Shown: positions 20,772-60,302, numbered from the stretch's first letter. The stretch: 64,000 nt of DNA from Candidatus Parcubacteria bacterium (GCA_018669975.1 JABHSK010000007.1:64390-128389), one strand, 5' to 3'. The notes: a model not told the origin generated them from the letters alone. Translations and numbers: made by a program.

Positions 20772-20912
20772 ATCAATCAAATATTGATACCGCAGACAGT
20801 GGGTTATTTAGCTAGTATTAGCTAAGTTATAAATCCTACCGAGGTGCCAAAAAGTAATTTTTAGGTAGTCTGCGGCTCTAATTCGCAGATTTTTTGTTTA
20901 AATAACAAATAT
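20772..20912 (+). ncRNA. ribosomal protein L10 (rplJ) leader-like structured 5'UTR with attenuator hairpin
   Basis: Long-range stem CCGCAGAC (20789-20796)/GTCTGCGG (20868-20875) enclosing ~70 nt, followed by hairpin TCTGCG-N9-CGCAGA + T6 immediately upstream of rplJ start. Confidence 0.5.
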
Positions 20913-28054: not shown

Positions 28055-29863
28055 ATGCACTTTTCCCGAAGTAATAATTACCAGATATCTACTGTTAGAA
28101 TAAATATCCTGCAAGGGGGTATTTTTTTCTTGATGCTCTTAATGATTGGGCGTTTATTTTATGTGCAGATTATTCAAAATGATTATTATGCTGGATTAGG
28201 AGCGGAGCAACGTTCAGTTATTAAAAATATTCAACCAGAAAGAGGACGTATTTTTTCTTTAGTAGATAGTGCTAGCGCTATTGATGACTTGTATCCTTTA
28301 GCAGTTAATAAGGTTTATTATGAAATTGGTGTTGCACCTGCTAAAATTAGTCGTCCACAAAATGTGACGGATATCTTCGTCGAAGTATTGGAGCTAGAAG
28401 AGGAGGAGGTGCTAGCTAAAGTTAAAAAAGATTCTAGGCGTTACGAGGTTTTAGCTAGGGAGGCTCCTAGAGAAAAAGCTGAGCAGTTGCAGGTTAAACT
28501 AGAAGAACTTAGGTTTGATATTAATAAAGATAAGTCAGAGGAAGAACAAGTGCAGAGCCTGGAGGACATGGGAATAAGTTTTACCAAGAACATATTACGT
28601 TTTTATCCTGACAAAGAAATTGGTGCGCATATTTTGGGATTTTTAGGCTATGGCAATGATGGTTATTCTAGGGTTGGTAAATATGGCTTGGAAGGGTATT
28701 TCGAAAGTGATTTAGCTGGATATTTTGGACAGGTGATAGGTGAGGCAGATGTGGCTGGTCGTTTATTAGCTGACAATGATGGTAAACCAGTCCAAAACGG
28801 AGCAGATTTAGTATTAACCATTGATCGTACGGTTCAATACTCCACTTGTAAGGCTCTAGAAAAGGCTGTAGCTCGCTATGAGGCTGAAAGTGGTACAGTT
28901 ATTATCATGGACACTGAAACGGGCGCTATTCGAGCTATGTGTAATTATCCTAGTTTTGATCCTAATCAATATAATCAAGTAGAGACCGCAGAGGTCTTTA
29001 ATAATAATGCCGTTTATCATGTATATGAGCCAGGGTCAGTAATGAAGTCTATAGCCATGGCTATAGCAGTGGATCAGGGTAAAGTATCTCCGAGTACTAC
29101 TTATAATGATGAGGGTGAAATAAAATTTGCCGGAGGACAAGTGATCAGGAATGCCGGTAATAAAAAATATGGCTGGGTAGACATGAAGGAAGTACTGGCA
29201 GCTTCTATTAATACTGGTATCATTGAAGCCACCTCTGATATAAACAATAAGATTTTTGAGGACTACATGAAAAAGTTTGGTTTTGGTGAAAAGGTTGGTA
29301 TTAATATTAGCCAGGATAGTATGGGGGATATATCTTCTTTATCTAAAAAGGGGGATATATATAAAGCCACTGGATCCTATGGTCAAGGTTTGACGGTTAC
29401 TCCTTTACAGATGCTTAGTGCTATAAACGCCATAGCTAATCGTGGTAAACTGGTACAGCCTTATATGGTTAGTCAGATTATGTATAGTGATGAGATTATA
29501 GAGGACGTAGAACCCAAGGTGATCAGAGAGGTTATATCTAGTGGTTCGGCTGCACAGATATCAGCTATGATGGTGAATGTAGTTGATAGTGGACACGCCA
29601 GTAAGGCAGCTGTAGAGGGGTATTATGTGGCTGGCAAGACTGGTACTGCACAAGTTGCTAATCCAGAAACTGGTAAATATTTTGCAGATAAAACTATACA
29701 TAATTTTGTTGGTTTTGCACCAAATGAAAACCCTAAGTTTACTATGATTACTAAACTTGACTATCCTAGCGCAGCGCGCTATTCTGCCGATACTGCTGCT
29801 CCATTGTTTGGCGAGATAGCTAAATTTCTGTTAGAATATTATCAAATACCACCCAATAGATAA
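28055..29863 (+). CDS. ftsI: peptidoglycan D,D-transpeptidase FtsI (class B PBP)
   Basis: N-terminal TM; SxxK (SVMK), SxN (SINTG), KTG (GKTGTAQV) motifs. Confidence 0.9.
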   Translation: MHFSRSNNYQISTVRINILQGGIFFLMLLMIGRLFYVQIIQNDYYAGLGAEQRSVIKNIQPERGRIFSLVDSASAIDDLYPLAVNKVYYEIGVAPAKISRPQNVTDIFVEVLELEEEEVLAKVKKDSRRYEVLAREAPREKAEQLQVKLEELRFDINKDKSEEEQVQSLEDMGISFTKNILRFYPDKEIGAHILGFLGYGNDGYSRVGKYGLEGYFESDLAGYFGQVIGEADVAGRLLADNDGKPVQNGADLVLTIDRTVQYSTCKALEKAVARYEAESGTVIIMDTETGAIRAMCNYPSFDPNQYNQVETAEVFNNNAVYHVYEPGSVMKSIAMAIAVDQGKVSPSTTYNDEGEIKFAGGQVIRNAGNKKYGWVDMKEVLAASINTGIIEATSDINNKIFEDYMKKFGFGEKVGINISQDSMGDISSLSKKGDIYKATGSYGQGLTVTPLQMLSAINAIANRGKLVQPYMVSQIMYSDEIIEDVEPKVIREVISSGSAAQISAMMVNVVDSGHASKAAVEGYYVAGKTGTAQVANPETGKYFADKTIHNFVGFAPNENPKFTMITKLDYPSAARYSADTAAPLFGEIAKFLLEYYQIPPNR

Positions 29864-29874
29864 AAGTAAAGAAA

Positions 29875-31140
29875 ATGAAGAAAGTTCTACATTTTATATT
29901 AAAAATATTAGCTAAATTGGTGATTAGAAAATATCAACCAAAGGTTGTTGGTATTACGGGTAGTGTGGGAAAGACCTCTGCTAAAGAGGCTGTTTATTGT
30001 GTATTAAAAGATAATTTTAAGACACGTCGTAGTGTCAAAAATTATAATAATGAAATTGGCACACCATTGACTATTTTAGGTTGGAGTAACTCACCTGGTA
30101 AGAATTTATTTAGGTGGTTAGTTTTACTTGTGCGTTCCATAAAGTTAATTGTTCGTAAAGATACAAATTATCCGGAAGTCTTAATTTTAGAAATGGGAGC
30201 AGATCGTCCAGGAGACATCAAATATTTGATTTCTATTGCCAAGCCAAATATAGCAGTGATGACTGCCATTGGTCCTAGTCATATTGAGTATTTTGGTAGT
30301 CTTAAAAAAATTGTTAAAGAAAAAAGTAGCATTTTGAAAGATCTAAAGGATAAGGATTGGGCTATTATCAATCGAGATGATCCCGAGTTAAGTGGAGTAA
30401 TTGATGATATTAAAAATAATTTACTGACTTTTGGACAAAGAGAGGATAGTGATATTCATTTAATGGATGTGAAAATCACCAAGAGGGATGAAAAGTATGG
30501 CACTAGTTTTAAATTGAGAAATAAGGGTTCAGAGGTGCCAATGTTTTTACCAGCAGTGCTAGGTTGGCAACATGCTCAGGCAGCGGCCACTGCTTGTGCG
30601 GTAGGGGTAGCATTGGGGTTAAATATGGTAGAAATAAGCAAGAGCCTAAGTGAGTACGAACCAGCTCGTGGGCGTACTAATCTTATTTCAGGAGTAAAAT
30701 ATAGTCAGATTATTGATGATACCTATAATGCCTCACCGCAGTCTTCAAAAGTTGCTCTTAATATTTTGGCAGAGTTTCCTTCGGAGGGTAGAAAGATAGC
30801 AGTTTTTGGTGATATGTTGGAGCTAGGTGAAATGAGTGAAGAAGGGCATCGTGAAGTTGGCCGGGATCTAGTTAAGTTAGGAGTTGATTATTTATTTGTA
30901 ATAGGCGAAAGAGCTAGAGATATATCTAGAGCCGCTAAAGAATCTGGTATGCCAGAAGACAAAATTTTTCATTTCCCCTTTACTATGGAGGCAGGAGTAT
31001 TTTTGCAGGAAAGAATAAAGCCAGGTGATGTTATCCTGGTCAAGGGTTCTCGTGGTTCTAAAATGGAGCAAATGGTTTATGAAATTATGGCTAAGCCTTG
31101 GGAATCTAGAGAGTTATTAGTTGGACCAGTTATCAAATAA
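29875..31140 (+). CDS. murF: UDP-N-acetylmuramoyl-tripeptide--D-alanyl-D-alanine ligase MurF
   Basis: Mur ligase P-loop ITGSVGKTSAKE and MurF-typical NYNNEIGTPLTIL. Confidence 0.8.
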   Translation: MKKVLHFILKILAKLVIRKYQPKVVGITGSVGKTSAKEAVYCVLKDNFKTRRSVKNYNNEIGTPLTILGWSNSPGKNLFRWLVLLVRSIKLIVRKDTNYPEVLILEMGADRPGDIKYLISIAKPNIAVMTAIGPSHIEYFGSLKKIVKEKSSILKDLKDKDWAIINRDDPELSGVIDDIKNNLLTFGQREDSDIHLMDVKITKRDEKYGTSFKLRNKGSEVPMFLPAVLGWQHAQAAATACAVGVALGLNMVEISKSLSEYEPARGRTNLISGVKYSQIIDDTYNASPQSSKVALNILAEFPSEGRKIAVFGDMLELGEMSEEGHREVGRDLVKLGVDYLFVIGERARDISRAAKESGMPEDKIFHFPFTMEAGVFLQERIKPGDVILVKGSRGSKMEQMVYEIMAKPWESRELLVGPVIK

Positions 31141-31186
31141 GATTGACCTTTATCTGATTTTCTGTTAAAAATATACTTGTTTTTAT

Positions 31187-31261
31187 GGCCCCATCGTCTA
31201 GTGGCTAGGACGCCAGGTTCTCATCCTGGTAACCGGAGTTCGATTCTCCGTGGGGTCACCA
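31187..31261 (+). tRNA. tRNA-Glu (anticodon CUC), CCA encoded
   Basis: Cloverleaf: acceptor GGCCCCA/TGGGGTC, D-arm GTC-TAGTGGCTAG-GAC, anticodon arm CCAGG-TTCTCAT-CCTGG (anticodon CTC, U33, A37), T-arm CGGAG-TTCGATT-CTCCG, discriminator A, CCA. Confidence 0.8.
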
Positions 31262-31706
31262 CCACAAAAACACTTCTAATTTAGGGGTGATTTTTTGATA
31301 ATAAAAAAAGGCCCGTCAAAGCCTTTGTGTAGAATTAGGACTGATATGACGGGCTGGGTTTCGGGCATTTTGGGCACCCCTTTGGTCGTGAGTACACGAT
31401 TTTCAGGAATCTGTACCTTTCATGCACGGGCTGTTTCGAAACAACCCTATCGAACAGCACATATAGATTAGCATATATTGGTAATTTTGTCAATAGCTAT
31501 AGGGTTTTGGTAGTTAATTTGACATAAATAGTACATTATGTTATAAATAAAATACAATTAATAAATATTATGAATTTACACAGAATTGCCCAATTTAATA
31601 TGTACTGGTGTGATGTCACCAAGTCTAAATCAGGGAACCCAAAGCAACTGGGGCAATTTTTGTATGTTATGAAAAAGTAAGTATTTTTTGAATCGTGATA
31701 TAGAAA

Positions 31707-31732
31707 AACTGCCTCAGTCCGAGGCAGTTTTT
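31707..31732 (+). terminator. intrinsic terminator (CTGCCTC-agtcc-GAGGCAG + T6) upstream of GNAT gene
   Basis: 7-bp perfect inverted repeat + TTTTTT; implies a transcribed non-coding segment between tRNA and this point. Confidence 0.5.
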
Positions 31733-31762
31733 TGTTGGTTCTTTCAAAGAAAGAGGAGTGTC

Positions 31763-32335
31763 ATGAGTGATAGAGTGATTTTTCTCAAAGGTAAAAAGGT
31801 TATTATGCGGCCCATGAATCAGGAAACTGATATGGCTGATTTTCAGCGCTGGATCAATGATCCTGAAATCAGGCGGTTTTTGACCGGTTGCATGCCTATT
31901 TCTATGCAGCAGGAGGAAAAATGGTTTGATGCCTTGCCAGATCGTCATGGACATATTGCTTTAGCAATTGAGACCATCGAAGATGGTGTTTTGATTGGCA
32001 ATATGGCTTTGCATAATATTAATTGGATTTCTGGGACAGCAGTCACCGGTGCTTTGATTGGTAATATTGAGTATCAAGGCAGAGGGTATGGTACTGACGC
32101 CAAGATGACCTTGTTGAATTATGCCTTCAATACTTTGGGCTTGCGAAAGGTGTGCTCAGAAGTATTGGATTTTAATGGACGTAGCTTGCGTTACGCTGCT
32201 AAATGCGGGTATAAGGAAGAGGGTAGGTTGGTCCAACACAACTTGTTTAATGGAAAGTATTATGACAATGTTTTGTTGGCAGTTTTCAGAGAAGATTGGT
32301 TGCCTTTGTGGGAAAAATATCAGTTGCAAGATTAA
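31763..32335 (+). CDS. GNAT-family N-acetyltransferase (RimJ/RimL-like)
   Basis: GNAT fold motifs (IGNIEYQGRGYGTDA...LNYAF...L); strong SD AAGAGGAG 5 nt upstream of ATG 31763; elevated GC. Confidence 0.7.
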   Translation: MSDRVIFLKGKKVIMRPMNQETDMADFQRWINDPEIRRFLTGCMPISMQQEEKWFDALPDRHGHIALAIETIEDGVLIGNMALHNINWISGTAVTGALIGNIEYQGRGYGTDAKMTLLNYAFNTLGLRKVCSEVLDFNGRSLRYAAKCGYKEEGRLVQHNLFNGKYYDNVLLAVFREDWLPLWEKYQLQD

Positions 32336-32342
32336 GCTTGTT

Positions 32343-32376
32343 AGCCCTACGTCAGTTTGACGTGGGGCTTTATTTT
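32343..32376 (+). terminator. intrinsic terminator after GNAT gene
   Basis: AGCCCTACGTCA-gttt-GACGTGGGGCT + TTTATTTT. Confidence 0.6.
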
Positions 32377-32429
32377 AGTATAAGATAAATACAGCCAGCA
32401 CCAAGCCCTTTAAACCAGGAGGAAAATCC

Positions 32430-32609
32430 ATGGCCACTAAGAATAAAGGGCCTCGGAAGAGGTCTCCGTATGGTTTGGGCAAAAGACCGCCCAAAAGTTT
32501 CCGTAAATGGTTGAGAAGTTTATCCCGCTCAGAAATTCGTGAGCTTCGTGAAGAGATGTATTTGAGGAGACAAGAAAGGAGAGTTAAACTTGATAGCTAT
32601 GAACCATGA
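32430..32609 (+). CDS. 58-aa highly basic small protein (MATKNKGPRKRSPYGLGKRPPKSFRKWLRS...), not in ORF track
   Basis: ATG preceded by perfect SD AGGAGG (7-nt spacing); followed by strong terminator; K/R-rich (nucleic-acid-binding-like); manual translation. Confidence 0.45.
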   Translation: MATKNKGPRKRSPYGLGKRPPKSFRKWLRSLSRSEIRELREEMYLRRQERRVKLDSYEP

Positions 32610-32615
32610 TTCTCT

Positions 32616-32646
32616 ACCCTGTTAATTCAACAGGGTATTTTTTTTT
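32616..32646 (+). terminator. intrinsic terminator (ACCCTGTT-aattc-AACAGGGT + T10)
   Basis: 8-bp perfect inverted repeat followed by 10 T. Confidence 0.75.
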
Positions 32647-32648
32647 GC

Positions 32649-32715
32649 AAAAAAAAATCCGTCGGATGCCTAAGTTGGTTAACTGTTTGTATTGGCATTA
32701 TAAACATCCGACGGA
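32649..32715 (-). terminator. convergent terminator for minus-strand ORF (TCCGTCGGATG...CATCCGACGGA, T9 on minus strand)
   Basis: 11-bp inverted repeat with long loop; on minus strand followed by TTTTTTTTT. Confidence 0.4.
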
Positions 32716-32721
32716 CGCGTC

Positions 32722-33195
32722 CTAATTACTAGCTACAGTTTCTTCCTTTTTACGGGATTTTTGTTTGATAGGAGACGTCACTTGACGTCGGCTCTTGGTC
32801 GTTCCTGGTTGATCCACGGTAGCCGTGGTTTGACCACAAGATCCACTACCATTGACGCAGTGCTTGAGTTCCACCTTAATTTCGGCGAAATATTGATGCT
32901 TGAGCATCGCATTGGTCGGACTGGTGTAGAGTTGGTGAACGAGTTTTCGAGCCAGAATAAACTGATCGGGGTGATCTCTGAGGCGTCTCAGATCATTAAG
33001 AATGCTTGGCATGGAATGGTATACCAGGTTCAGGCATTTGTGATCTGCACTCCAAAGAGCGCGAATTACCTTGGCGATCGGAGCGATATCAGCTTGTGTG
33101 CGTGGGTATTTTTTTGCCCCCAGTAGACTGATCATGCCTCTCCAAATTGCGCTAGGTAACTGCCCCGTTGTGGGGTTTTGAGTTTCTCGTGCCAC
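32722..33195 (-). CDS. hypothetical protein, GC-rich (~50% GC), GTG start with GGGGGA RBS
   Basis: Longest ORF in a compositionally distinct segment; own RBS and terminator; no family recognised; overlapping + ORF 32761..33126 considered less likely. Confidence 0.4.
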   Translation of the reverse strand: MARETQNPTTGQLPSAIWRGMISLLGAKKYPRTQADIAPIAKVIRALWSADHKCLNLVYHSMPSILNDLRRLRDHPDQFILARKLVHQLYTSPTNAMLKHQYFAEIKVELKHCVNGSGSCGQTTATVDQPGTTKSRRQVTSPIKQKSRKKEETVASN

Positions 33196-33384
33196 GTTTC
33201 CCCCAGACTTAGTCTAGTTTTGTAATTTATGTTGACTGGTTAGAGTCAACGCTCCTCCTTGAGACAGTTTACAAACCACCCCCTTTCAATAGCTAGGTGT
33301 TATAAAGGACGCTTAATATAATTAATGAATAATATATTATAACACTGATTTAGTCAATATTTGTAAATATGCTATAATTAAAAC

Positions 33385-34122
33385 ATGAAAAAAGCTTTTA
33401 TTTTTGTAGTTTCTTTATTTTTGATGATACCTATTTGGTCACAAGCGCAGACTTTTGAGGATGCTGATCATGATGGTTTATCTAATATTGAAGAGATTGA
33501 GAGGTACCACACTGATCCATATAACGAAGATACAGATGGTGATGGTTATGTGGATAGTTTAGAGGTGTCTAATGGTTATTCTCCTAGGCATGGAGACTCT
33601 CAACGTTTGATTAGTGTGGATTCTGATAAGGATTACCTCAATGATGCTTGGGAATTAGTATTGGGTACAGGTCTGATGAATCCAGATTCAGATGGAGATT
33701 TGTATTTAGATGGCACAGAGGTTGCTGCTAGTTATGATCCTTTGAATGCTCAGCCAGTGAAATTAGACAAACTTATTAAAGTTAGCTTAGATGAACAGCG
33801 CTTAGAGTATTTTTTTGGTGGAAAGTTATTGGATTCATTTTTAATATCCAGTGGTTTAGATAGTATGCCAACGCCAGTAGGAGAGTTTAAAATATTAGAT
33901 AAAGTACCAGTCAAGCATTATGGTGGTGGTGATTATGATTATCCTAATACTAAATGGAATCTACATTTTACTACACAACGTTATAGATATTATATACACG
34001 GTGCCTATTGGCATGATAATTTTGGTGAACAGATGAGCCATGGCTGTGTTAATGTGGATTATGAACACATGGAGCCACTTTATTGGTGGTCTCAATATAA
34101 TACTAAAATTATTATTGAATAG
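33385..34122 (+). CDS. secreted L,D-transpeptidase (YkuD domain) with N-terminal thrombospondin-type-3-like Ca-binding repeats
   Basis: Signal peptide; repeats DADHDGLSNIEE / DTDGDGYVDSLE / DSDGDLYLDGTE; catalytic YIHGAYWHDNFGEQMSHGCVNV (LDT His...SHGC motif). Confidence 0.7.
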   Translation: MKKAFIFVVSLFLMIPIWSQAQTFEDADHDGLSNIEEIERYHTDPYNEDTDGDGYVDSLEVSNGYSPRHGDSQRLISVDSDKDYLNDAWELVLGTGLMNPDSDGDLYLDGTEVAASYDPLNAQPVKLDKLIKVSLDEQRLEYFFGGKLLDSFLISSGLDSMPTPVGEFKILDKVPVKHYGGGDYDYPNTKWNLHFTTQRYRYYIHGAYWHDNFGEQMSHGCVNVDYEHMEPLYWWSQYNTKIIIE

Positions 34123-34125
34123 AGC

Positions 34126-34437
34126 ATGAGATTTATTGTAGTATTTGTAACTTTATTTTTTTTAGCTAATATTCCTAATGTTTTAGCTGCTCCTGATTTT
34201 TCAGTAGAAACAGAACTTTGTAAGAGCACAGCGGGCATGGTTGATGTGGAATACAAGGTAGGCTTTAGATGTATCTGTCCAGAAAAATATAAGTGGTTTG
34301 ATGGCTTGGGTTGTTTGACTTCAAGTTCGGGTGTTGTTGATTATAGTAGTCATTATAATTTGATTGTATTATTAGCTGTAATTGGAATATTAATGTCAGT
34401 ATTCTTATACATATTTTTGATGTATAGAAAACAATAG
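34126..34437 (+). CDS. small Cys-containing secreted/membrane-anchored protein
   Basis: N-terminal signal peptide, C-terminal TM; no family recognised. Confidence 0.4.
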   Translation: MRFIVVFVTLFFLANIPNVLAAPDFSVETELCKSTAGMVDVEYKVGFRCICPEKYKWFDGLGCLTSSSGVVDYSSHYNLIVLLAVIGILMSVFLYIFLMYRKQ

Positions 34438-34464
34438 TTTAATTAATGATTAACAAATAAATAT

Positions 34465-34686
34465 ATGAAAAAATTATCATGTTCCGCTATGGGTGGTGGT
34501 GATAAATGTCAGGAGATTTTTGAGGGTGAAACAGCCGAAGAACTCCTGGAAAAGGCTACTAAGCATGTAATGGAGGCTCCAATTCATGAAGATTTAAGAC
34601 AAGAGATGGCTAGTCAAGATGAAGCAGGAAAAGCTAAATGGATGGAATCTTATAATAAGCTTTGGGAGGAGACTCTAGAAGTATAA
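34465..34686 (+). CDS. DUF1059-like small protein
   Basis: 73 aa with CxxxGxxC...ELLEKATKH...H pattern reminiscent of DUF1059. Confidence 0.4.
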   Translation: MKKLSCSAMGGGDKCQEIFEGETAEELLEKATKHVMEAPIHEDLRQEMASQDEAGKAKWMESYNKLWEETLEV

Positions 34687-34694
34687 AAAAATAT

Positions 34695-34730
34695 CCGCGT
34701 CCTGAGCGTAGTCGAGGGGCGCGGTTTTTT
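34695..34730. terminator. bidirectional intrinsic terminator between convergent genes
   Basis: CCGCGTCC...GGGCGCGG stem flanked by A-run and TTTTTT. Confidence 0.55.
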
Positions 34731-34740
34731 AATTAAAATT

Positions 34741-35049
34741 TTATTTTTTTTTACGGAAAGGCAATTCAGCTTGTTTGCCTAATAGCCCTAGGGTTATTTT
34801 TTTTCCCTTGGGCGTGAGTTTTATGTGTCTAATAAATAATTTATGTTGAGTTTTTTCTCCAAAGCCTACTAACAACCCTTTGTCAATTAGTCTTTCTATA
34901 CTTTTGGTAATAATATTAGCACGAATTTTTTTGGCTGGAGCTTTTTTAATATTACTATAAAATTTTTCCAGCACAACACGAGATATTTTAGCCCTATTGC
35001 TTTGCAAGGTTTGTTTGAGAATATATTTTTGTAGGCTGGATAATTTCAT
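34741..35049 (-). CDS. hypothetical basic protein (possible DNA-binding)
   Basis: ORF only; K/R-rich C-terminus. Confidence 0.4.
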   Translation of the reverse strand: MKLSSLQKYILKQTLQSNRAKISRVVLEKFYSNIKKAPAKKIRANIITKSIERLIDKGLLVGFGEKTQHKLFIRHIKLTPKGKKITLGLLGKQAELPFRKKK

Positions 35050-35050
35050 A

Positions 35051-35284
35051 TTATTTCATAACTATGGTTGGTTTTTTTAGTTTTTGACCAAAGTTTGATT
35101 TGTTCCACAGTCTCTCATGCAGATAATATAGAAACGCTTTTAGTATTTGCACCATAACTGCTTCTGTTAAACCAATACGCCAATCTTTATTGAGGATGGT
35201 TAAGATAGTAAAGGTGGTTATAAAAGCCAGGATAAACCAGGTTGTTGATTTTAGGAAACTACGAGAGTGATGTTCATGAAACAT
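35051..35284 (-). CDS. small membrane protein (DUF2061-like)
   Basis: Two predicted TM helices; 1-nt spacing to downstream gene. Confidence 0.35.
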   Translation of the reverse strand: MFHEHHSRSFLKSTTWFILAFITTFTILTILNKDWRIGLTEAVMVQILKAFLYYLHERLWNKSNFGQKLKKPTIVMK

Positions 35285-35375
35285 ATTTTTATTTTAGTAT
35301 TTTATGTTTATATTATTACACTATTTGCAGGATATGGCAAAATGATTTATAATTAATTCAGTTTACAATTTAATA

Positions 35376-35520
35376 AAAATTATCAAGAGTGCGGTGAGAG
35401 ATTTGGCTCGACGACCCGTCAGCAACCTGTCCTATTTTGGATAAGGTGCTAAGTCCAACCCTATGCAGGGAAAGATGGTGTATTTATCATTGACTTCCTT
35501 GCCGTGGAAGTTTTTTAATT
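35376..35520 (+). ncRNA. SAM-I (S-box) riboswitch with terminator expression platform, upstream of metK
   Basis: TATCAAGAGTGCGGTGAGAGATTTGGCTCGACGACCCGTCAGCAACC ... GGTGCTAAGTCC...GCAGGGAAAGATGGTG matches S-box consensus (yUAUCAAGAGnGGnGGAGGGAnnGGCCCnAUGAAnCCCnGCAACC...GGUGCUAAUUCCnGCAG...GAAAGAUGAG); terminator CTTCC-N8-GGAAG + T6 at 35494-35516. Confidence 0.85.
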
Positions 35521-35536
35521 ATTAAGTGTTAAGAAA

Positions 35537-36547
35537 ATGTTAAAAACAGCAGAAAATGTTAGCTTTGGTCACCCAGATAAGGTTTGTGATCAGATATCAG
35601 ATGCTATTTTAGATGAATGTCTAAAGCAGGACCCTCGTAGTCGAGTGGCAGTGGAGGCATTGGGTGGTCATGGTAAATTAAGTATTATGGGTGAGGTGAC
35701 TACCAATGCAAAGTTTGATGCCGCTGAGATTGCTAGGAAAATTTATCAGGAGATTGGTTACGAAGATAATCTAGACATTTTAGTAAACATTACTACCCAA
35801 AGTTCAGACATTGCTATGGGAGTAGATACTGGTGGCGCCGGTGACCAGGGTATTATGGTTGGTTATGCTTGTGATGAGACAGAAGAACTTTTACCATTAG
35901 AGCATGTGTTAGCAACTCGTTTAATTCGCAAATTGGAAGATGTGCGTTTAGCTGGTCAGTCTGAATTGGCTAAGTATCTTTTGCCAGACAGTAAAGCGCA
36001 AGTTACCTTAGATGGAAAGCAGGTAGACACAGTCGTTGTATCTACTCAACATCAGGATGATGTAGATTTTGACAAGTTGAAGAAGTTGGTTGAAGAAGAG
36101 GTTGTTAGACCAATTGTTCCTCAAGCTAATAATATTTATGTTAATCCAACTGGTCTTTTTGTTCAAGGTGGTTTTGAGGCAGATACTGGATTGACCGGGC
36201 GCAAGATTACAGCAGATAATTATGGTCCACAGGTTCCAGTAGGTGGAGGAGCGTTTTCTGGTAAAGATGCCACCAAGGTAGATAGATCAGCTGCTTACAT
36301 GGCACGTTATTTAGCTACTGAATATTTAAAGAAATATAATGCTAAAGAAGTAATTGTAAAATTAGCCTACGCCATTGGTAGACCGCAGCCAGTCATGGCT
36401 ACGGCTAATGTTGATGGGAAAAATGTAGAAATTAATGGTTATGATTTAAGTCCGGCTGGTATTATAGAAAAACTTAATTTAAGAAAACCACAATTTAGAG
36501 ACCGAGCTAGGTTTGGTTTCTTTTTGGACTTTGATATTGAGAATTAA
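35537..36547 (+). CDS. metK: S-adenosylmethionine synthetase, short form (336 aa)
   Basis: N-terminal SFGHPDKVCDQISDAILD (MetK GHPDK motif), GGGAFSGKD P-loop-like motif. Confidence 0.85.
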   Translation: MLKTAENVSFGHPDKVCDQISDAILDECLKQDPRSRVAVEALGGHGKLSIMGEVTTNAKFDAAEIARKIYQEIGYEDNLDILVNITTQSSDIAMGVDTGGAGDQGIMVGYACDETEELLPLEHVLATRLIRKLEDVRLAGQSELAKYLLPDSKAQVTLDGKQVDTVVVSTQHQDDVDFDKLKKLVEEEVVRPIVPQANNIYVNPTGLFVQGGFEADTGLTGRKITADNYGPQVPVGGGAFSGKDATKVDRSAAYMARYLATEYLKKYNAKEVIVKLAYAIGRPQPVMATANVDGKNVEINGYDLSPAGIIEKLNLRKPQFRDRARFGFFLDFDIEN

Positions 36548-40078: not shown

Positions 40079-41425
40079 ATGACAAAACAAAAACAAAAAA
40101 TGCATGTAGTGGCAGTTGATATGGGCTATGGACACCAACGGGCGGCCTATCCATTTCTAGACAGTGCCTATAGAGACGTTATTAACGCCAACCACTACCA
40201 AGGTATCAGTAAGGCAGAACAAAATTCTTGGGAAAGTGGACGTAAATGGTATGAAATCATTTCCCGTTTTAAAGGGTTACCTTTTGTTGGTGAGGCGGCT
40301 TTTGCTATTATGGATCATTTTCAAAAGATTGATCCATTTTATCCTAAACGTGATCTCAGTAAACCATCTCAACAATTAAAGTATTTTCAAAAACAGATCA
40401 AGCGTGGCATGGGTAAGGACCTGATAGACGATCTCAATAAACGTATACCAAAAGGACACAAAACACCGTTACCATTTTTGGCTACTTTTTTTGTGCCAGC
40501 ATATTTTGCGGAATACTATGGCTATAAAGGTAAAATATATTGTGTGGTTTGTGATGCTGATGTAGCTCGTGCTTGGGCACCTTATTATTCTAAGACTAGT
40601 AAGATTGTTTATTTGGCTCCAAATAAGCGAACTAAATCTAGGCTGCAACTTTATGGTGTTAAATCTAGTAATATTCATGTGACAGGGTTTCCTTTACCCA
40701 AAGAGAATATAGGTGGTCCCAGTCAAAGGGTGGTCAAGGCTGATTTAAGAGATAGATTGTATAATTTAGATCCTAAAGGAGTCTATCGTAAAAAATATGC
40801 CAAACACATTGAAGATTATCTTTGTCCAACTAAAAACATTAAGAAGCCAAAGCGTCCATTGACTATTACTTTTGCAGTTGGTGGCGCTGGTGCCCAAAGA
40901 GAGTTGGGTATTACTTTGCTTAAGCGACTTCATAAGGATCTCAAGAAAAATAATATCCGTCTTAATTTGGTAGCTGGTGTACGTAATGATGTTTATCTTT
41001 ATTTTCAAAAGGCTCTCAAAGAATATTGTCTAGATAATTGTGGTGCTGTCAGGGTCATTTATGCAGAGGATAAAATGTCTTATTTTAAAGTGTTTAATAA
41101 AATATTGCGTAAAACTGATATTTTGTGGACCAAGCCATCTGAACTTACTTTCTATAGTGGTTTGGGTATTCCTATTATCATGTCAGAACCAATTGGATAT
41201 CAGGAAAGATATAATCGTGGTTGGCTATTTGCCATTGGTGCTGGTGTAGATAGTTTGAATCCAGAATATGTAGATGAGTGGTTATTTGATTGGTTAGATT
41301 CCGGTTGGTTAGCTGAAGCAGCTATGGAGGGATTCTTAGATGCTCCGAGAATGGGTGCTTATAATATTGAGAATATTGTCTTGCGTAATAAGATTAGTGA
41401 AATAGAAGATGTCCACTTGTTATAA
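40079..41425 (+). CDS. GT28 / MGDG-synthase-like glycosyltransferase (UgtP/diglucosyl-diacylglycerol synthase-like)
   Basis: N-terminal VDMGYGHQRAA (GxGH motif of MGDG_synth/MurG family); C-terminal TKPSELTFYSGLGIPIIMSEPIGYQERYNRGW parallels UgtP [34 protein letters not shown]. Confidence 0.55.
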   Translation: MTKQKQKMHVVAVDMGYGHQRAAYPFLDSAYRDVINANHYQGISKAEQNSWESGRKWYEIISRFKGLPFVGEAAFAIMDHFQKIDPFYPKRDLSKPSQQLKYFQKQIKRGMGKDLIDDLNKRIPKGHKTPLPFLATFFVPAYFAEYYGYKGKIYCVVCDADVARAWAPYYSKTSKIVYLAPNKRTKSRLQLYGVKSSNIHVTGFPLPKENIGGPSQRVVKADLRDRLYNLDPKGVYRKKYAKHIEDYLCPTKNIKKPKRPLTITFAVGGAGAQRELGITLLKRLHKDLKKNNIRLNLVAGVRNDVYLYFQKALKEYCLDNCGAVRVIYAEDKMSYFKVFNKILRKTDILWTKPSELTFYSGLGIPIIMSEPIGYQERYNRGWLFAIGAGVDSLNPEYVDEWLFDWLDSGWLAEAAMEGFLDAPRMGAYNIENIVLRNKISEIEDVHLL

Positions 41426-41428
41426 TCT

Positions 41429-42760
41429 ATGATAATAAAAAATCTTAAAATAAATTTTTACAAGAGCATCAAACAATCGATGGATCTTAGTTTGGATAGG
41501 GTCAATATTTTTATTGGTCAAAATAATAGTGGTAAGAGTAATATCTTGGATGCCATTGAATTTACTTTGAGTGAACACTCAGAGGACCACACTTTGTATT
41601 ATGAAAAATCAGATATAGATATCACGATTGAATTTACTGATCAAACACAAGCCAAATATAAATTACCGGGCAAGGAGGGAGTGCTCAGTCTTAAGGGTCA
41701 GCAAAAGCATCTTAATTTTCCAGGTGCTACTTTGCCAGACAACAAGGCTTTAACTCATATGCTGAGCACGCATTTTAAGAGACTAGATACAGAGGCTTTT
41801 ACAGACTTTGAGCAAATAGAAGAAGATTTTCAGGATCTATTTAATTATCCAAGTCAGTTGGATAGATTTAAAGAAATACTTAAACATCATTTTCCCAAGA
41901 TTTCTGCTACCAAAAATGCATTAGATATTCGTTATGAAAACGAGGGTTTATATGAAGGCAAGAGAAGAGTGACTATCGATAGGCTTGGTTCTGGCTTTCA
42001 GCGCATTTTCACAATGCTTTTGTATATTTTTCATCCTAAATATTCAATAGTGATGATTGGCGAGCCAGAAATTCATTTGCATCCAGCTATTGCCAAAAAA
42101 CTTCTTTGGGCTATGCAGAATAGCAATGCTGGTCAGATATTATTTACTACACATTCACCATTGTTTATTACACCGATGACTTTGCCACAGGTAGTAAGAG
42201 TGACTAAACATGAAAATACTACGCAGGCTTTTGCACTTTCGCAGGTTAAATATAACTACAAACGTCTAATACAAGAACTTAATGCAGACAATCTAGAGAT
42301 GTTTTTTACTGATGAGGTTGTTTTGGTGGAAGGTGTATCAGATAAATTATTGATTCGTGGTTTGATAGATAAGTTTTATCAAGGAGATAGAGCTATTAAA
42401 GTGATTCAAGCTCACGGTAAGGGTAATGTTAAAATATATGCAGATTTGTTAAAAATTTTTAAAATTTCTTTTACTGTTGTTTTGGATAAAGATGCTATAA
42501 AAAGTAATCATCTAAGAGAGTTGTTGCGGCATCTAGATATCCATATGCCACCGTTGAACACGGAAGATTTAATTGAGCAGCTCAAGAAGTATAGTATTTT
42601 TATTCTACCCAATGGAGATTTGGAGGCTAATTATCCACGCAAGTATCAGTTGGGAGATAGTAAATCACTCAATGCTTTGCATGCCGCTAATTTAGTTAGT
42701 GAAAAGGATTTTAATTCCAAGGTCATGGAAAATTTAAAAGCAATAATAGATAACTTATAA
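41429..42760 (+). CDS. OLD-family ATP-dependent endonuclease (ABC-type ATPase N-domain + C-terminal Toprim)
   Basis: Walker A GQNNSGKSN; Walker B/D-loop IVMIGEPEIHLHP; H-loop FTTHSPLF; Toprim-like EVVLVEGVSDKLLIRGL ... VVLDKDA; 3 nt after upstream gene. Confidence 0.6.
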   Translation: MIIKNLKINFYKSIKQSMDLSLDRVNIFIGQNNSGKSNILDAIEFTLSEHSEDHTLYYEKSDIDITIEFTDQTQAKYKLPGKEGVLSLKGQQKHLNFPGATLPDNKALTHMLSTHFKRLDTEAFTDFEQIEEDFQDLFNYPSQLDRFKEILKHHFPKISATKNALDIRYENEGLYEGKRRVTIDRLGSGFQRIFTMLLYIFHPKYSIVMIGEPEIHLHPAIAKKLLWAMQNSNAGQILFTTHSPLFITPMTLPQVVRVTKHENTTQAFALSQVKYNYKRLIQELNADNLEMFFTDEVVLVEGVSDKLLIRGLIDKFYQGDRAIKVIQAHGKGNVKIYADLLKIFKISFTVVLDKDAIKSNHLRELLRHLDIHMPPLNTEDLIEQLKKYSIFILPNGDLEANYPRKYQLGDSKSLNALHAANLVSEKDFNSKVMENLKAIIDNL

Positions 42761-46144: not shown

Positions 46145-46173
46145 TTGACAAATCTAATATTTATGTGTATAAT
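46145..46173 (+). promoter_or_regulatory. perfect consensus promoter TTGACA-17-TATAAT
   Basis: TTGACA 46145-46150, spacer 17, TATAAT 46168-46173. Confidence 0.55.
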
Positions 46174-46242
46174 AGCACATCCTAAAGTTATCAATTTTTT
46201 ATTAGTCCACCCAATAGCCATACAACAAAAGGAGAACCGTTT

Positions 46243-46416
46243 ATGATTGTATTGAGTGCTGACATAAAAAAATCATTCAGAGAGTCCTTCGAAGTAAGAG
46301 GGTACACAGTTGAATTCAAGGATGATCATGTCTTGGTGACTAAGGATGGTAAACCTGAAAAGATTACCAATAAAAAGGTGATGCAATACATCGAAGCCTT
46401 CAGTCCAGAGGATTGA
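46243..46416 (+). CDS. 57-aa small protein (MIVLSADIKKSFRESFEVRGYTVEFKDDHVLVTKDGKPEKITNKKVMQYIEAFSPED), not in ORF track
   Basis: ATG with GGAG RBS 7 nt upstream, downstream of consensus promoter; manual translation; no family recognised. Confidence 0.35.
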   Translation: MIVLSADIKKSFRESFEVRGYTVEFKDDHVLVTKDGKPEKITNKKVMQYIEAFSPED

Positions 46417-46514
46417 GATACACACAATGTGATCAAAAAAACTTCGAATAGCACGCCGTTTCTGTCTCTTTTGAGTCAGATTTGCCTCGTTGGCTTGTCC
46501 AGCGGGGTTTTTTC

Positions 46515-46543
46515 TTGTTTTTGGTAGCGATTTTTGGTATAAT
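46515..46543 (+). promoter_or_regulatory. putative promoter (TTGTTT-17-TGgTATAAT) for subtilase gene
   Basis: Extended -10 TGGTATAAT ending 46543; -35 TTGTTT. Confidence 0.4.
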
Positions 46544-59732: not shown

Positions 59733-59736
59733 AAAA

Positions 59737-59757
59737 CCCGCTGTTTTGGCCAGCGGG
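59737..59757. terminator. bidirectional hairpin (CCCGCTG-ttttggc-CAGCGGG) flanked by A7 / (minus) T7
   Basis: 7-bp inverted repeat; T-run on minus strand side. Confidence 0.5.
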
Positions 59758-59776
59758 CGCGCCATTGTTGTTAGTC

Positions 59777-60133
59777 CTATGGTTTTTCTTCCTCTTCCGA
59801 GGGGAGGAAGGTCTGTTGATGGTCGATTGCTATGGGCGCTATGCGTTCACGCTGGAGATGCTGGAGATGCACCTGGGCATCAGTTTGATTGGCACAGATG
59901 CCGTGGTGGGCATCGGTCAGCATGTTGGCATAGACGGTCTGGCGATGACCATGCGGATTATTGACGAATATCTTGAGTCCACTAGGACCACCATCATCCA
60001 GAAATGAAATAATCTGGAAAGGTCCGAGAACATCGGTGGGACCTTCGGGGTCCTGCCAGAGGATGGTCCAAAAAGTGGAGCCTTCCGGGAATGTAACTTG
60101 AAGTTCCTGGGGATCGGTGATTACTTTCACCAT
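59777..60133 (-). CDS. hypothetical protein encoded in a GC-rich (~52% GC) islet
   Basis: ATG preceded by strong SD GGAGG (7 nt); composition far above window average; no family recognised. Confidence 0.5.
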   Translation of the reverse strand: MVKVITDPQELQVTFPEGSTFWTILWQDPEGPTDVLGPFQIISFLDDGGPSGLKIFVNNPHGHRQTVYANMLTDAHHGICANQTDAQVHLQHLQRERIAPIAIDHQQTFLPSEEEEKP

Positions 60134-60302
60134 GATTGCGCCTCCTGCTAGAGTTTCGGACTTTTAACGATTTTATGGGCTTAAAAAGAGCTTTAGTATA
60201 ATTAGAAATACTTATTATAATATCATATTTTGGTGTTTTTGTCAACACCAATAAAAGTTGACTTTATAACCAGAAATTGCTGTAATTTAGCAGTAGTTTT
60301 TT

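What the first reader, a model, noticed from the sequence alone, without database searches (positions are those of the whole stretch)
31262..33300. High-GC islet immediately downstream of tRNA-Glu with canonical SD sequences and its own terminators
From the tRNA 3' end to about 33300 the GC content rises from about one-third to roughly 45-50%. Genes here (GNAT acetyltransferase, a 58-aa basic protein, a 157-aa minus-strand ORF) have textbook Shine-Dalgarno sequences (AAGAGGAG, AGGAGG, GGGGGA) and strong hairpin terminators. Both features are atypical for the rest of the window. The tRNA-adjacent location is the classic site for horizontally acquired DNA, but no integrase is visible. The structured, GC-rich 31300-31470 segment between the tRNA and terminator 31707-31732 could encode a small RNA.
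Basis: seen in the sequence. Interest (0 to 1): 0.55.

Follow-up and report, generated by a model that had tools for sequence, protein, structure and literature searches.

The report
Old accessory-gene slot with attenuator-controlled acetyltransferase
The GC-rich 2 kb after tRNA-Glu in this tiny marine Parcubacteria genome is not a freshly inserted island but an old, inherited cluster of four small self-contained genes, including a candidate small RNA and an acetyltransferase that appears to be switched on by a previously undescribed ribosome-sensing leader found across the whole phylum.

Summary
31262-33300 is the GC-richest 2 kb of the window (41.7% vs 35.4%). It is patchy, with a 28% GC gap at 31471-31700. 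Its genes are GC3-rich and carry Shine-Dalgarno (SD) sites, whereas 66 of the other 68 ORFs lack them.

It is not a recent tRNA-targeted island. There is no integrase and no repeat of the tRNA end. Independent assemblies from many samples are at least 99.93% identical, and sister species 75-79% identical keep the same genes in the same place with the same high GC.

Four transcription units are present:
- a conserved candidate sRNA of about 160 nt on the minus strand (31300-31458);
- a SpeG/AAC(6')-like GNAT gene behind a translated 36-codon leader and a terminator/antiterminator switch;
- a 59-aa basic protein;
- a fast-evolving 157-aa helical ORFan.

The "terminator" at 31707-31732 is the attenuator's switch. 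The same leader architecture precedes GNAT homologues in 53 of 53 terminator-bearing Patescibacteria loci. Covariation supports both alternative folds, and no Rfam family matches.

In related genomes the position after tRNA-Glu holds unrelated GC-rich, SD-led ORFans. An ancient lateral origin therefore remains plausible.

The parts
31187..31261 (+). tRNA-Glu (CTC), last gene of the conserved PBP-MurF-tRNA block. It is a synteny breakpoint relative to family-level relatives.
   Evidence: ARAGORN and Rfam tRNA at 59.5 bits. PBP-MurF-tRNA-Glu is conserved in L035-L039, L041 and L074. The downstream backbone of those relatives (rplU, recR, ybaB, dnaB) is absent from the window.
31300..31458 (-). 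Candidate small RNA gene of about 160 nt. Promoter: -35 TTGACA (31493-31488), 17-nt spacer, -10 TAATCT (31470-31465). Body: a 5' hairpin, a long central hairpin, and a terminator hairpin (31310-31355) followed by U7 (the A-run 31303-31309 on the + strand).
   Evidence: Read from the sequence. 84-90% identical in L115, where the adjacent GNAT gene is only 74% nt / 71% aa identical. The differences include 1-nt indels, so it is non-coding. All three stem substitutions keep pairing. Covariance model R1 finds a third copy in L122 (36.9 bits, E 3e-6), inverted relative to GNAT. No Rfam hit.
31519..31547 (+). Promoter of the GNAT leader: TTGACA (31519-31524), 17 nt, TATAAA (31542-31547). It lies back to back with the sRNA promoter.
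   Evidence: Read from the sequence. Conserved in L115, L122, L131, L139 and L116.
31570..31680 (+). Leader ORF of 36 codons (MNLHRIAQFNMYWCDVTKSKSGNPKQLGQFLYVMKK). AT-rich start with no SD. It contains region 1 (AATTGCCC, 31584-31591) and region 2 (CTGGGGCAATTTTTG, 31648-31662).
   Evidence: ORF list. 53 of 53 unique terminator-bearing GNAT leaders carry such an ORF, against 7.4 +/- 2.5 in shuffles and 7 on the reverse complement. A [QK][MLIF]N motif with Asn always AAT occurs in 33 unique leaders. The ATG is invariant in alignments A3 and A4.
31703..31733 (+). Intrinsic terminator of the attenuator (GAAAAACTGCCTCAG-TC-CGAGGCAGTTTTTT). Its 5' arm (31704-31717) can instead pair with region 2, forming the antiterminator.
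   Evidence: Terminator scan: 13 pairs. P1 plus terminator: 85% of cells paired against 28-44% in slid controls, 13 of 16 pairs with changes on both sides, 0 of 500 shuffles reaching the observed values. Antiterminator: 88% against 18-45%, 7 of 11 pairs, 0 of 500 on four of five measures. RNAduplex z for the window: 1:2 -2.5, 2:3 -4.1 (row L120, which is 100% identical to the window).
31763..32335 (+). GNAT N-acetyltransferase of 190 aa (Acetyltransf_3; SpeG/AAC(6')/RimJ-like). SD AAGAGGAG at 31751-31758. Its own terminator lies at 32343-32369.
   Evidence: Pfam PF13302, 80.5 bits against a cutoff of 25.4. NCBIfam gives only sub-threshold hits to PseH, SpeG, AAC(6') and RimJ/L. Closest solved structures are SpeG (1e-11) and AAC(6') (1e-10). 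The nearest named homologues are Patescibacteria. GC3 0.435.
32430..32609 (+). p59: a 59-aa, strongly basic protein of unknown family. SD AGGAGG at 32417-32422; terminator at 32615-32637.
   Evidence: ORF list. No family in Pfam, PHROGs, NCBIfam or PADLOC. Homologues occur only in sister lineages at 75-79%, plus the 67-aa ORF after GNAT in L116 (69% over 32 aa). Absent after GNAT in other clades.
32650..32715 (-). Terminator of p157 on the minus strand. Arms TCCGTCGGATG (32658-32668) and CATCCGACGGA (32705-32715), a 36-nt loop, then U8 (the A-run 32650-32657 on the + strand).
   Evidence: Read from the sequence. The loop is too long for the scanner.
32722..33195 (-). p157: a 157-aa ORFan starting at GTG, with SD GGGGGA (33204-33199). 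Predicted six-helix bundle (residues 10-115) with a disordered basic C-terminal tail. Fast-evolving.
   Evidence: Substitutions by codon position 41/37/70, 38/34/59 and 43/31/61 indicate coding sequence. Only four homologue clusters were found among 5.8 and 1.8 billion proteins. 63-66% identical where the flanking LDT is 77-86%. AlphaFold pLDDT above 90 for the core. No fold match in PDB or BFVD. The same slot in L116 holds a non-homologous GC-rich 155-aa ORF.
33196..33384 (.). Divergent control region between p157 and LDT. p157 promoter on the minus strand: -35 at 33357-33352, -10 at 33334-33329. About 125 nt of GC-rich 5' UTR with the hairpin/palindrome GTTGACTGGTTAGAGTCAAC (33231-33250). 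LDT promoter TATAAT at 33373-33378, only 6 nt before ATG 33385, so the LDT mRNA is probably leaderless.
   Evidence: Promoter scan. 91% mean identity across lineages whose coding regions are 75-79% identical, with a compensatory U-A to C-G change in the hairpin in L031. The overall fold is not unusually stable (z +0.17).

Best explanation
The stretch is an old accessory-gene slot, not a fresh island. It lies between the core cell-wall operon (PBP-MurF-tRNA-Glu) and the LDT...metK block. It holds four small units, each with its own promoter-like site and terminator.

(1) A candidate sRNA of about 160 nt, transcribed leftward from a promoter that sits back to back with the GNAT promoter. Its target is unknown.

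(2) A SpeG/AAC(6')-like GNAT acetyltransferase governed by a translated-leader transcription attenuator.
- Shown: a 36-codon leader ORF.
- Shown: region 1 (inside codons 5-8) pairs with region 2.
- Shown: region 2 can instead pair with the 5' arm of the terminator.
- Shown: all three helices covary across Patescibacteria.
- Inferred: without stalling, 1:2 and 3:4 form and transcription stops at about 31733.
- Inferred: a ribosome stalled around the conserved Gln-x-Asn codons (8-10) covers region 1. Region 2 then captures the terminator arm, RNA polymerase reads through, and the SD-led GNAT is made.
- Inferred: the enzyme acetylates a polycationic amine such as a polyamine or an aminoglycoside-like translation inhibitor.

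(3) A 59-aa basic protein.

(4) A 157-aa helical protein with a basic tail, behind a conserved 5' UTR hairpin.

High GC3 combined with a strong SD marks a small minority class of genes (5 of 73 ORFs) in a genome whose core genes have AT-rich, SD-less starts. The block has been inherited vertically since before the sister species split. Its composition looks maintained rather than decaying. An ancient lateral origin, within Patescibacteria for the GNAT cassette, is plausible but not demonstrated.
For: - Composition and SD dichotomy. The same two-class pattern occurs in relative L116 (r = -0.89).
- Vertical inheritance: identical order in sister lineages L029 and L031 and in the 559,896-bp contig, with LDT 77-86%, GNAT 86%, p59 79% and p157 63-66% identity. 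leader-GNAT-p67...LDT in L116. GNAT...LDT-like-p102-DUF2061-metK in L131, L138 and L139.
- High GC retained in relatives. No excess of GC-to-AT changes.
- No integrase and no att repeat.
- Near-clonal population with no empty site.
- Attenuator: conserved leader, terminator and SD architecture. ORF test 53 of 53 against 7.4 expected. Covariation for the terminated state and for the antiterminator. Duplex z-scores averaging -2.2 and -3.0 over 56 loci. No Rfam family.
- Non-coding 31280-31765 is more conserved (about 90%) than the GNAT coding sequence (74%).
- sRNA.
- GNAT relatives.
- The same logic is established for B. subtilis bmrCD, vmlR, tlrB and ytbDE (bioRxiv 10.1101/2025.01.13.632840).
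Against: - There are no expression data. The promoters, RNA ends, leader translation and stalling are all inferred from sequence.
- The leader has no run of one codon, as amino-acid attenuators do. The invariant AAT codon could reflect an RNA-level constraint rather than a peptide-level one, so a ligand- or protein-binding RNA is not excluded.
- The sRNA rests on three sequences with no fully compensatory pair.
- The 3-taxon parsimony test for amelioration is crude: the AT-rich control gene LDT gave an implausible AT-to-GC excess.
- The GC3/SD dichotomy, and the variable GC-rich ORFan slot after tRNA-Glu in relatives, are exactly what lateral transfer would produce. 'Not an island' therefore means 'not recent or recognisable', not 'not foreign'.
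- GNAT GC3 is above its neighbours in most Patescibacteria loci, which also fits repeated intra-phylum transfer.
Confidence: 0.6

Rival explanations
1. Recent tRNA-targeted genomic island. A mobile element from a GC-richer, SD-using donor integrated at the 3' end of tRNA-Glu and brought GNAT, p59 and p157 as cargo.
For: GC3 and SD differ sharply from the host genes. The block is adjacent to a tRNA. In relatives the same tRNA is followed by unrelated GC-rich ORFans.
Against: No integrase, recombinase or transposase. No repeat of the tRNA 3' end. Present in every strain sampled and in sister species at the same position, with divergence parallel to the flanks. GNAT-p59...LDT linkage exists in L116 without the tRNA. 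GNAT homologues and their leader are native to Patescibacteria. No phage or plasmid match.
Confidence: 0.07
2. No transfer at all. The genes are native, and their GC-richness and SD sites are functional adaptations. They would form a separately regulated, SD-dependent translation class, with structured RNAs and UTRs that need G+C. Composition is then held by selection.
For: High GC and SD are conserved across lineages diverged to 61-86% protein identity. No net GC-to-AT drift in p157. Non-coding parts (sRNA, leader, p157 UTR) are the most conserved sequences in the region. The GNAT cassette with its leader is phylum-wide.
Against: p157, p59, p118 and the 57-aa ORF are lineage-restricted ORFans. 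The p157 slot holds a non-homologous gene in L116. The slot after tRNA-Glu turns over between relatives. Selection for GC3 in weakly constrained ORFans is hard to justify.
Confidence: 0.25
3. The GNAT leader is a ligand- or protein-binding riboswitch-like RNA rather than a ribosome-sensing leader peptide. The open reading frame would be incidental.
For: Nucleotide-level conservation next to P1: CAA-ATG-AAT-AT, with Asn always AAT in 33 leaders, and a conserved 3' junction (ATTTTTGCTGGG). Covarying P1 with a terminator/antiterminator platform is typical of riboswitches.
Against: 53 of 53 leaders keep an ATG ORF of at least 27 codons, against about 7 expected. The ATG is invariant, and indels between the ATG and the motif are multiples of 3. 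The interior between the junctions is variable in sequence and length. No Rfam match.
Confidence: 0.12
4. Chimeric assembly: the GC-rich segment was mis-joined from another organism.
For: Many public contigs break at the tRNA (31198-31265) and inside p157 (32883-32917 and 33066-33093).
Against: Independent assemblies from different samples and assemblers span both junctions at 99.93-100% identity: L002, L004, L005, L011, L013 and L019 on the left; L001, L003, L011, L013, L028 and L034 on the right. The same order is found on 844-kb and 560-kb contigs.
Confidence: 0.01

Closest known systems
Leader-peptide (ribosome-mediated) transcription attenuators of antibiotic-resistance genes in Bacillus subtilis: bmrCD, vmlR, tlrB, ytbDE
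   Same: A short translated uORF, an anti-antiterminator hairpin overlapping the uORF, a mutually exclusive antiterminator and intrinsic terminator, and a downstream gene with its own SD.
   Different: The regulated gene is a SpeG/AAC(6')-like GNAT, not an ABC-F protein, exporter or methyltransferase. The leader peptides are unrelated and carry a conserved [QK]-[MLIF]-N(AAT) motif. The element is found in Patescibacteria. The inducer is unknown, and NusG-pause hairpins were not examined.
Amino-acid biosynthesis attenuators (trp, his, leu, phe leaders)
   Same: Four-segment 1:2 / 2:3 / 3:4 logic, with region 1 inside the leader ORF.
   Different: There are no tandem runs of one regulatory codon, and the downstream gene is not biosynthetic.
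tRNA-associated genomic islands and integrative elements
   Same: Location directly 3' of a tRNA gene, atypical GC3, accessory ORFans, and turnover of the same site in relatives.
   Different: No integrase, no att direct repeat and no presence/absence polymorphism. The content is inherited vertically across species.
SpeG spermidine N1-acetyltransferase, AAC(6') aminoglycoside acetyltransferases, and RimJ/RimL (GNAT, Pfam Acetyltransf_3)
   Same: The Pfam domain scores above threshold, and the best solved relatives are SpeG and AAC(6').
   Different: All NCBIfam equivalog scores are far below their cutoffs (for example SpeG 43.6 against 218, PseH 56.6 against 93.1). The substrate is therefore unknown.

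Membership tests
tRNA-targeted genomic island / integrative element | Site-specific recombinase (integrase) at one border | tested here: not met
   No recombinase-like ORF in 29000-36000. Pfam, PHROGs, NCBIfam and PADLOC give only GNAT.
tRNA-targeted genomic island / integrative element | Direct repeat of the tRNA 3' end at the distal border (attL/attR) | tested here: not met
   A 23-mer with up to 3 mismatches and a 14-mer with up to 2 mismatches each occur only in the tRNA itself. No relevant repeat family was found.
tRNA-targeted genomic island / integrative element | Presence/absence polymorphism among close relatives (an empty site) | tested here: not met
   All contigs of this species carry the islet. 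Sister species keep it in place.
tRNA-targeted genomic island / integrative element | Composition deviating from the host, next to a tRNA | tested here: met
   GC 41.7% against 35.4%. GC3 0.40-0.46 against 0.295 +/- 0.053. The tRNA-Glu ends at 31261.
Leader-peptide transcription attenuator | Short ORF between the promoter and the regulated gene, conserved as an open frame | tested here: met
   36 codons at 31570-31680. 53 of 53 homologous leaders have such an ORF, against 7.4 +/- 2.5 in shuffles.
Leader-peptide transcription attenuator | Intrinsic terminator directly upstream of the regulated gene | tested here: met
   31703-31733: 13 pairs plus a T-run. 8 of 10 terminator pairs covary.
Leader-peptide transcription attenuator | Mutually exclusive antiterminator, and an anti-antiterminator overlapping the leader ORF | tested here: met
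   Antiterminator: 88% of cells paired against 18-45% in slid controls, 7 of 11 pairs with compensatory changes. P1 (region 1 with region 2): 5 of 6 pairs with compensatory changes. Energy z-scores.
Leader-peptide transcription attenuator | Read-through that depends on ribosome stalling in the leader | not testable with these tools
   This needs toeprinting, reporter assays or Term-seq.
Riboswitch (known classes) | Match to a described aptamer family, with a conserved ligand-binding core | tested here: not met
   No Rfam hit at E up to 10 on 31100-33400, nor at the gathering score on six homologous leaders. The interior of P1 is variable.
GNAT, Acetyltransf_3 (RimJ/RimL/SpeG-like) | Pfam PF13302 above the gathering score | tested here: met
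   80.5 bits against 25.4, covering profile positions 2-138 of 138.
SpeG / RimJ / RimL / PseH / AAC(6') equivalogs | NCBIfam equivalog score above the curated cutoff | tested here: not met
   PseH 56.6 against 93.1; SpeG 43.6 against 218; RimJ 25.7 against 190; RimL 24.2 against 184; AAC(6') at most 32 against at least 250.
GNAT toxin-antitoxin (TacT/AtaT type) | Adjacent RHH/DUF1778 antitoxin gene and a TacT-type GNAT | tested here: not met
   No such domain in the neighbouring ORFs. The GNAT matches Acetyltransf_3 and SpeG-like families instead.
Known sRNA families (6S, SRP, tmRNA, RNase P and others) | Rfam covariance-model match | tested here: not met
   Nothing on 31296-31470 on either strand at E up to 10. 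ARAGORN finds no tmRNA.

The most novel reading that the evidence does not exclude
The GNAT leader is a new, phylum-wide class of ribosome-arrest sensor. Its conserved Gln-x-Asn(AAU) leader peptide would stall in response to a translation-perturbing polycation (a polyamine or an aminoglycoside-like antibiotic) and switch on a detoxifying acetyltransferase. The GC3-rich, SD-led genes would form a distinct translational class or gene pool in a Parcubacteria lineage whose core genes have abandoned SD-dependent initiation. The linked sRNA would feed into the same switch.
Probability: 0.25. Interest if true: 0.75.

Novelty: new variant of a known kind. Interest (0 to 1): 0.55.

Why it matters
Almost nothing is known about gene regulation in Patescibacteria (CPR), which are uncultured, tiny-genome episymbionts.

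- The leader-peptide attenuator is conserved and supported by covariation. It sits in front of one acetyltransferase family across the phylum. That gives a concrete, testable regulatory device, and it hints that these cells sense translational stress.
- The sharp split between SD-less, AT-rich core genes and a few GC3-rich, SD-led accessory genes gives a simple marker for accessory or laterally derived genes in such genomes. It also bears on whether Parcubacteria that lose the anti-SD motif (PMC9297842) still use SD-dependent initiation.
- For annotation, the case is a caution: "GC-rich next to a tRNA" does not by itself mean a recent island.

Tried and rejected
- Recent island: rejected. No integrase, no att repeat and no empty site.
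- Donor search: GNAT homologues are Patescibacteria. p157 and p59 have only sister-lineage homologues. Nothing in phages or plasmids.
- Viral-contig scan with a 16-mer from the sRNA: only chance 16-18-mers.
- Known RNA families: none.
- Trans pairing of the sRNA with the GNAT leader: RNAduplex is no better than shuffles (z -0.45; one search timed out). This was left open because the method is too permissive for long RNAs.
- p157 as a non-coding RNA or an antisense ORF: rejected by third-position excess.
- Homology between p157 and the positional counterpart p155 in L116: none.
- GNAT toxin-antitoxin system and defence system: no support.
- Amelioration test: no GC-to-AT excess, but the control gene behaved oddly, so this carries low weight.
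- p157 5' UTR as a stable global structure: not supported (z +0.17). Only the local hairpin is conserved.
- Literature: no description found of a GNAT leader-peptide attenuator, or of SD usage classes, in CPR.
Full report
**Organism and context.** The window is 35.4% GC and its genes lie mostly on the plus strand. Its MurF is 63-73% identical to MurF of Komeilibacteria/Parcubacteria MAGs. The same sequence lies on an 844,504-bp metagenome contig. Near-identical contigs (99.93% or more) come from several marine samples. The genome is therefore a small marine Patescibacteria (Parcubacteria) genome. The region of interest lies between the dcw-type operon (MraZ, RsmH, PBP, MurF) ending in tRNA-Glu(CTC) at 31187-31261 and an L,D-transpeptidase (LDT) gene at 33385. 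Small genes, a SAM riboswitch and metK follow.

**Checking the observation.**
- 31262-33300 is 41.7% GC. That is higher than any non-overlapping 2-kb window (maximum 39.3%; z about 3.7).
- The region is not uniform. GC by segment: 42.6% (31262-31470), 27.8% (31471-31700), 41.0% (GNAT), 43.9% (59-aa ORF), 48.1% (157-aa ORF). The "45-50%" figure applies only to the right-hand third.
- The SD claim holds strongly. Of 73 ORFs of at least 55 aa, only 7 have an anti-SD duplex energy of -5 kcal/mol or below (median +0.1).
- All five ORFs with GC3 of 0.40 or more are among those 7. They are GNAT, p59, p157, a 57-aa ORF at 46243-46416, and a 118-aa minus-strand ORF at 59777-60133.
- Terminator-like hairpins are enriched: 8 found against 2.2 expected.
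- Mis-assembly is excluded, because independent assemblies span both borders.

**Is it a tRNA-targeted island?**
- There is no integrase or any mobility gene.
- There is no repeat of the tRNA 3' end.
- No strain lacks the segment.
- Lineages 75-79% identical at the DNA level (L029, L031) keep GNAT, p59, p157(-) and LDT. Protein identities are 86% (GNAT), 79% (p59), 63-66% (p157) and 77-86% (LDT).
- A 559,896-bp contig of the L029-type species has MraZ...PBP-MurF, a 606-bp gap, then GNAT-p59-ORF(-)-LDT...metK. The window's corresponding gap is 623 bp.
- In those relatives the p157 gene is still about 51% GC overall, with 200-bp windows peaking at 52-54%, next to a 36-38% GC LDT gene.
- A more distant marine relative (L116; GNAT 61%, LDT 72%) has leader-GNAT, a p59 homologue, an inserted low-GC 508-aa gene, a non-homologous GC-rich 155-aa minus-strand ORF, then LDT. 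There is no tRNA upstream.
- L131, L138 and L139 keep GNAT...LDT-like-p102-DUF2061-metK.
- The closest named GNAT homologues (52-61% identity) are mostly Patescibacteria, with a few Zixibacteria and one Verrucomicrobiae.
- Phage and plasmid collections hold nothing similar.
- Substitutions polarised on three lineages show no excess of GC-to-AT changes in p157 (30 against 35 at third positions). The test is crude.

The block is therefore old and vertically inherited, and it is not visibly ameliorating.

**What keeps the lateral-transfer idea alive.**
- In family-level relatives (L035-L039, L074), PBP-MurF-tRNA-Glu(-tRNA-Val) is conserved.
- In those genomes it is followed directly by a variable slot of mutually non-homologous, mostly family-less genes. 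Many have high GC3 (0.42-0.96) and strong SD sites.
- The slot is followed by a conserved backbone of rplU, recR, ybaB and dnaB.
- That backbone is absent from the window, so the tRNA is also a synteny breakpoint.
- The two-class pattern (AT-rich and SD-less versus GC3-rich and SD-led) recurs in L116 (r = -0.89) and around GNAT in L139.
- GNAT itself tends to be GC3-richer than its neighbours across Patescibacteria.
- Published work reports that about half of Parcubacteria lack the anti-SD motif (PMC9297842). Whether this genome does cannot be read from the window.

**The segment between the tRNA and GNAT is the most conserved part.**
- 31280-31765 is about 90% identical to L115. The adjacent GNAT gene there is 74% identical in DNA and 71% in protein.
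- The segment contains two elements, described below.

**Element 1: a candidate sRNA on the minus strand.**
- The promoter is TTGACA (31493-31488), a 17-nt spacer, then TAATCT (31470-31465). About 160 nt of RNA follow.
- The RNA ends in the hairpin 31310-31355 followed by U7.
- Differences from L115 include single-nucleotide indels, so the segment is non-coding.
- The three substitutions in predicted stems all preserve pairing, and the loops carry the indels.
- A covariance model finds a third copy in L122 at E 3e-6. It has a conserved 5' domain and its own terminator, and it is inverted relative to GNAT. That argues for an independent gene whose linkage to GNAT is retained.
- No Rfam family matches.
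- No convincing pairing with the GNAT leader was found.
- The function is unknown. My best guess is a trans-acting regulator tied to the GNAT unit.

**Element 2: the GNAT leader.**
- The layout is: promoter (31519-31547); a 36-codon ORF with an AT-rich, SD-less start (31570-31680); a strong terminator (31703-31733); then SD and ATG (31751-31765).
- Region 1 (AATTGCCC, codons 5-8) pairs with region 2 (GGGCAATT, 31651-31658). Region 2 (CTGGGGCAATTTTT) can instead pair with the terminator's 5' arm (AAAAACTGCCTCAG).
- The same architecture precedes GNAT homologues from 47 to 85% identity.
- 53 of 53 unique terminator-bearing leaders carry an ATG ORF of at least 27 codons ending within 75 nt of the terminator. 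Shuffles give 7.4 +/- 2.5, and the reverse complement gives 7.
- 33 unique leader peptides share a [Q/K]-[M/L/I/F]-N motif at about codons 8-10, with Asn always AAT.
- Covariation was counted on a plain MAFFT alignment of 21 leaders.
  - Terminated state (P1 plus terminator): 85% of cells paired against 28-44% in slid controls, and 13 of 16 pairs changed on both sides.
  - Antiterminator: 88% against 18-45%, and 7 of 11 pairs changed on both sides.
  - No shuffle in 500 reached the observed values, except 2 of 500 on one antiterminator measure, the number of further pair types.
- Duplex energies across 56 loci give mean z of -2.2 for 1:2 and -3.0 for 2:3.
- No Rfam family covers the element.
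- This is the classical ribosome-mediated attenuator logic, as in B. subtilis bmrCD, vmlR, tlrB and ytbDE.

**The proteins.**
- GNAT matches Pfam Acetyltransf_3 (80.5 bits). Its closest solved relatives are SpeG spermidine acetyltransferases and AAC(6') enzymes. Every NCBIfam equivalog score is far below its cutoff, so the substrate is open. A polycationic amine that perturbs translation would fit the attenuator, but that is inference.
- p59 is very basic and restricted to this clade plus L116.
- p157 is coding, shown by third-position excess, and fast-evolving. Only four homologue clusters were found among billions of proteins.
- p157 is predicted to be a six-helix bundle with a disordered basic tail. 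It has no structural relative in PDB or BFVD.
- The 5' UTR and promoter region that p157 shares with LDT is 91% conserved. It contains a hairpin/palindrome with a compensatory change. It could be an RNA element or an operator.
- LDT appears to be leaderless.

**Verdict.** The anomaly is real, but the "islet" is an old accessory slot made of four self-contained units, not a recent integration.
- Its most interesting content is regulatory: a phylum-wide leader-peptide attenuator in front of a SpeG/AAC(6')-like acetyltransferase, and a linked candidate sRNA.
- Whether the GC3-rich, SD-led class marks ancient foreign DNA or a functional translational class remains open.
- The 16S 3' end and transcript data would decide it.

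My confidence by component:
- attenuator architecture: 0.85
- ribosome dependence of the attenuator: 0.7
- the sRNA: 0.65
- not a recent island: 0.85
- ancient lateral origin of at least part of the block: about 0.4

Noticed in passing
window 59735-60160: A second GC-rich module (48% GC). It holds a 118-aa minus-strand ORFan (59777-60133) with GC3 0.54 and SD AGGAGG (dG -10.3), and its own hairpin terminator at about 59735-59765. There is no Pfam family and no phage match. It has the same style as p157.
   Followed up: partly
window 46146-46520: A third module of the same class: promoter-like TTGACA...TATAAT, a long 5' UTR, SD AAAGGAG, a 57-aa ORFan (46243-46416, GC3 0.43), and a GC-rich 3' region with a terminator-like hairpin.
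   Followed up: partly
window 33373-33385: The LDT gene's TATAAT box ends 6 nt before its ATG, so the mRNA is probably leaderless. Most genes in the window have AT-rich upstream regions without SD (median duplex energy +0.1).
   Followed up: partly
window 32883-32917 and 33066-33093: Contigs from at least eight public assemblies end or start in these two short intervals inside p157. One contig (L007) carries a variant at 32908. This may reflect a population polymorphism or a coverage problem.
   Followed up: partly
window 35377-35481 and 20772-20905: A SAM riboswitch (65.4 bits) lies upstream of metK, and an L10 leader (49.8 bits) lies upstream of rplJ. Both are above the Rfam gathering scores.
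   Followed up: no
window 40079-42760: An adjacent pair: a 448-aa protein (weak DUF6938 hit) and a 443-aa AAA_15/AAA_21 plus OLD-like TOPRIM protein. This looks like an OLD-family nuclease defence-type module.
   Followed up: no
window 47767-48291: Three to four tandem copies of a 153-nt unit (61-100% identical) inside a 516-aa ORF (47041-48591).
   Followed up: no
L037 7584-8246 (-), L039 7684-9006 (-), L074 2215-4255: In related MAGs the genes directly after tRNA-Glu/Val are extreme compositional outliers, for example a 220-aa ORFan with GC3 0.96 in a genome with GC3 of about 0.3. They carry strong SD sites and mostly match no Pfam family.
   Followed up: partly
L116 2765-3130 (-), 4382-4675 (-), 7638-8105 (-): In the distant marine relative, every GC3-rich gene around GNAT is small, SD-led and without a Pfam family. 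The inserted 508-aa fn3-like gene has host-like low GC and no SD.
   Followed up: partly
window 15300-15382 and 16842-16924: An 83-nt direct repeat at 71% identity, 1542 nt apart. It suggests two adjacent paralogous genes (531 and 525 aa).
   Followed up: no
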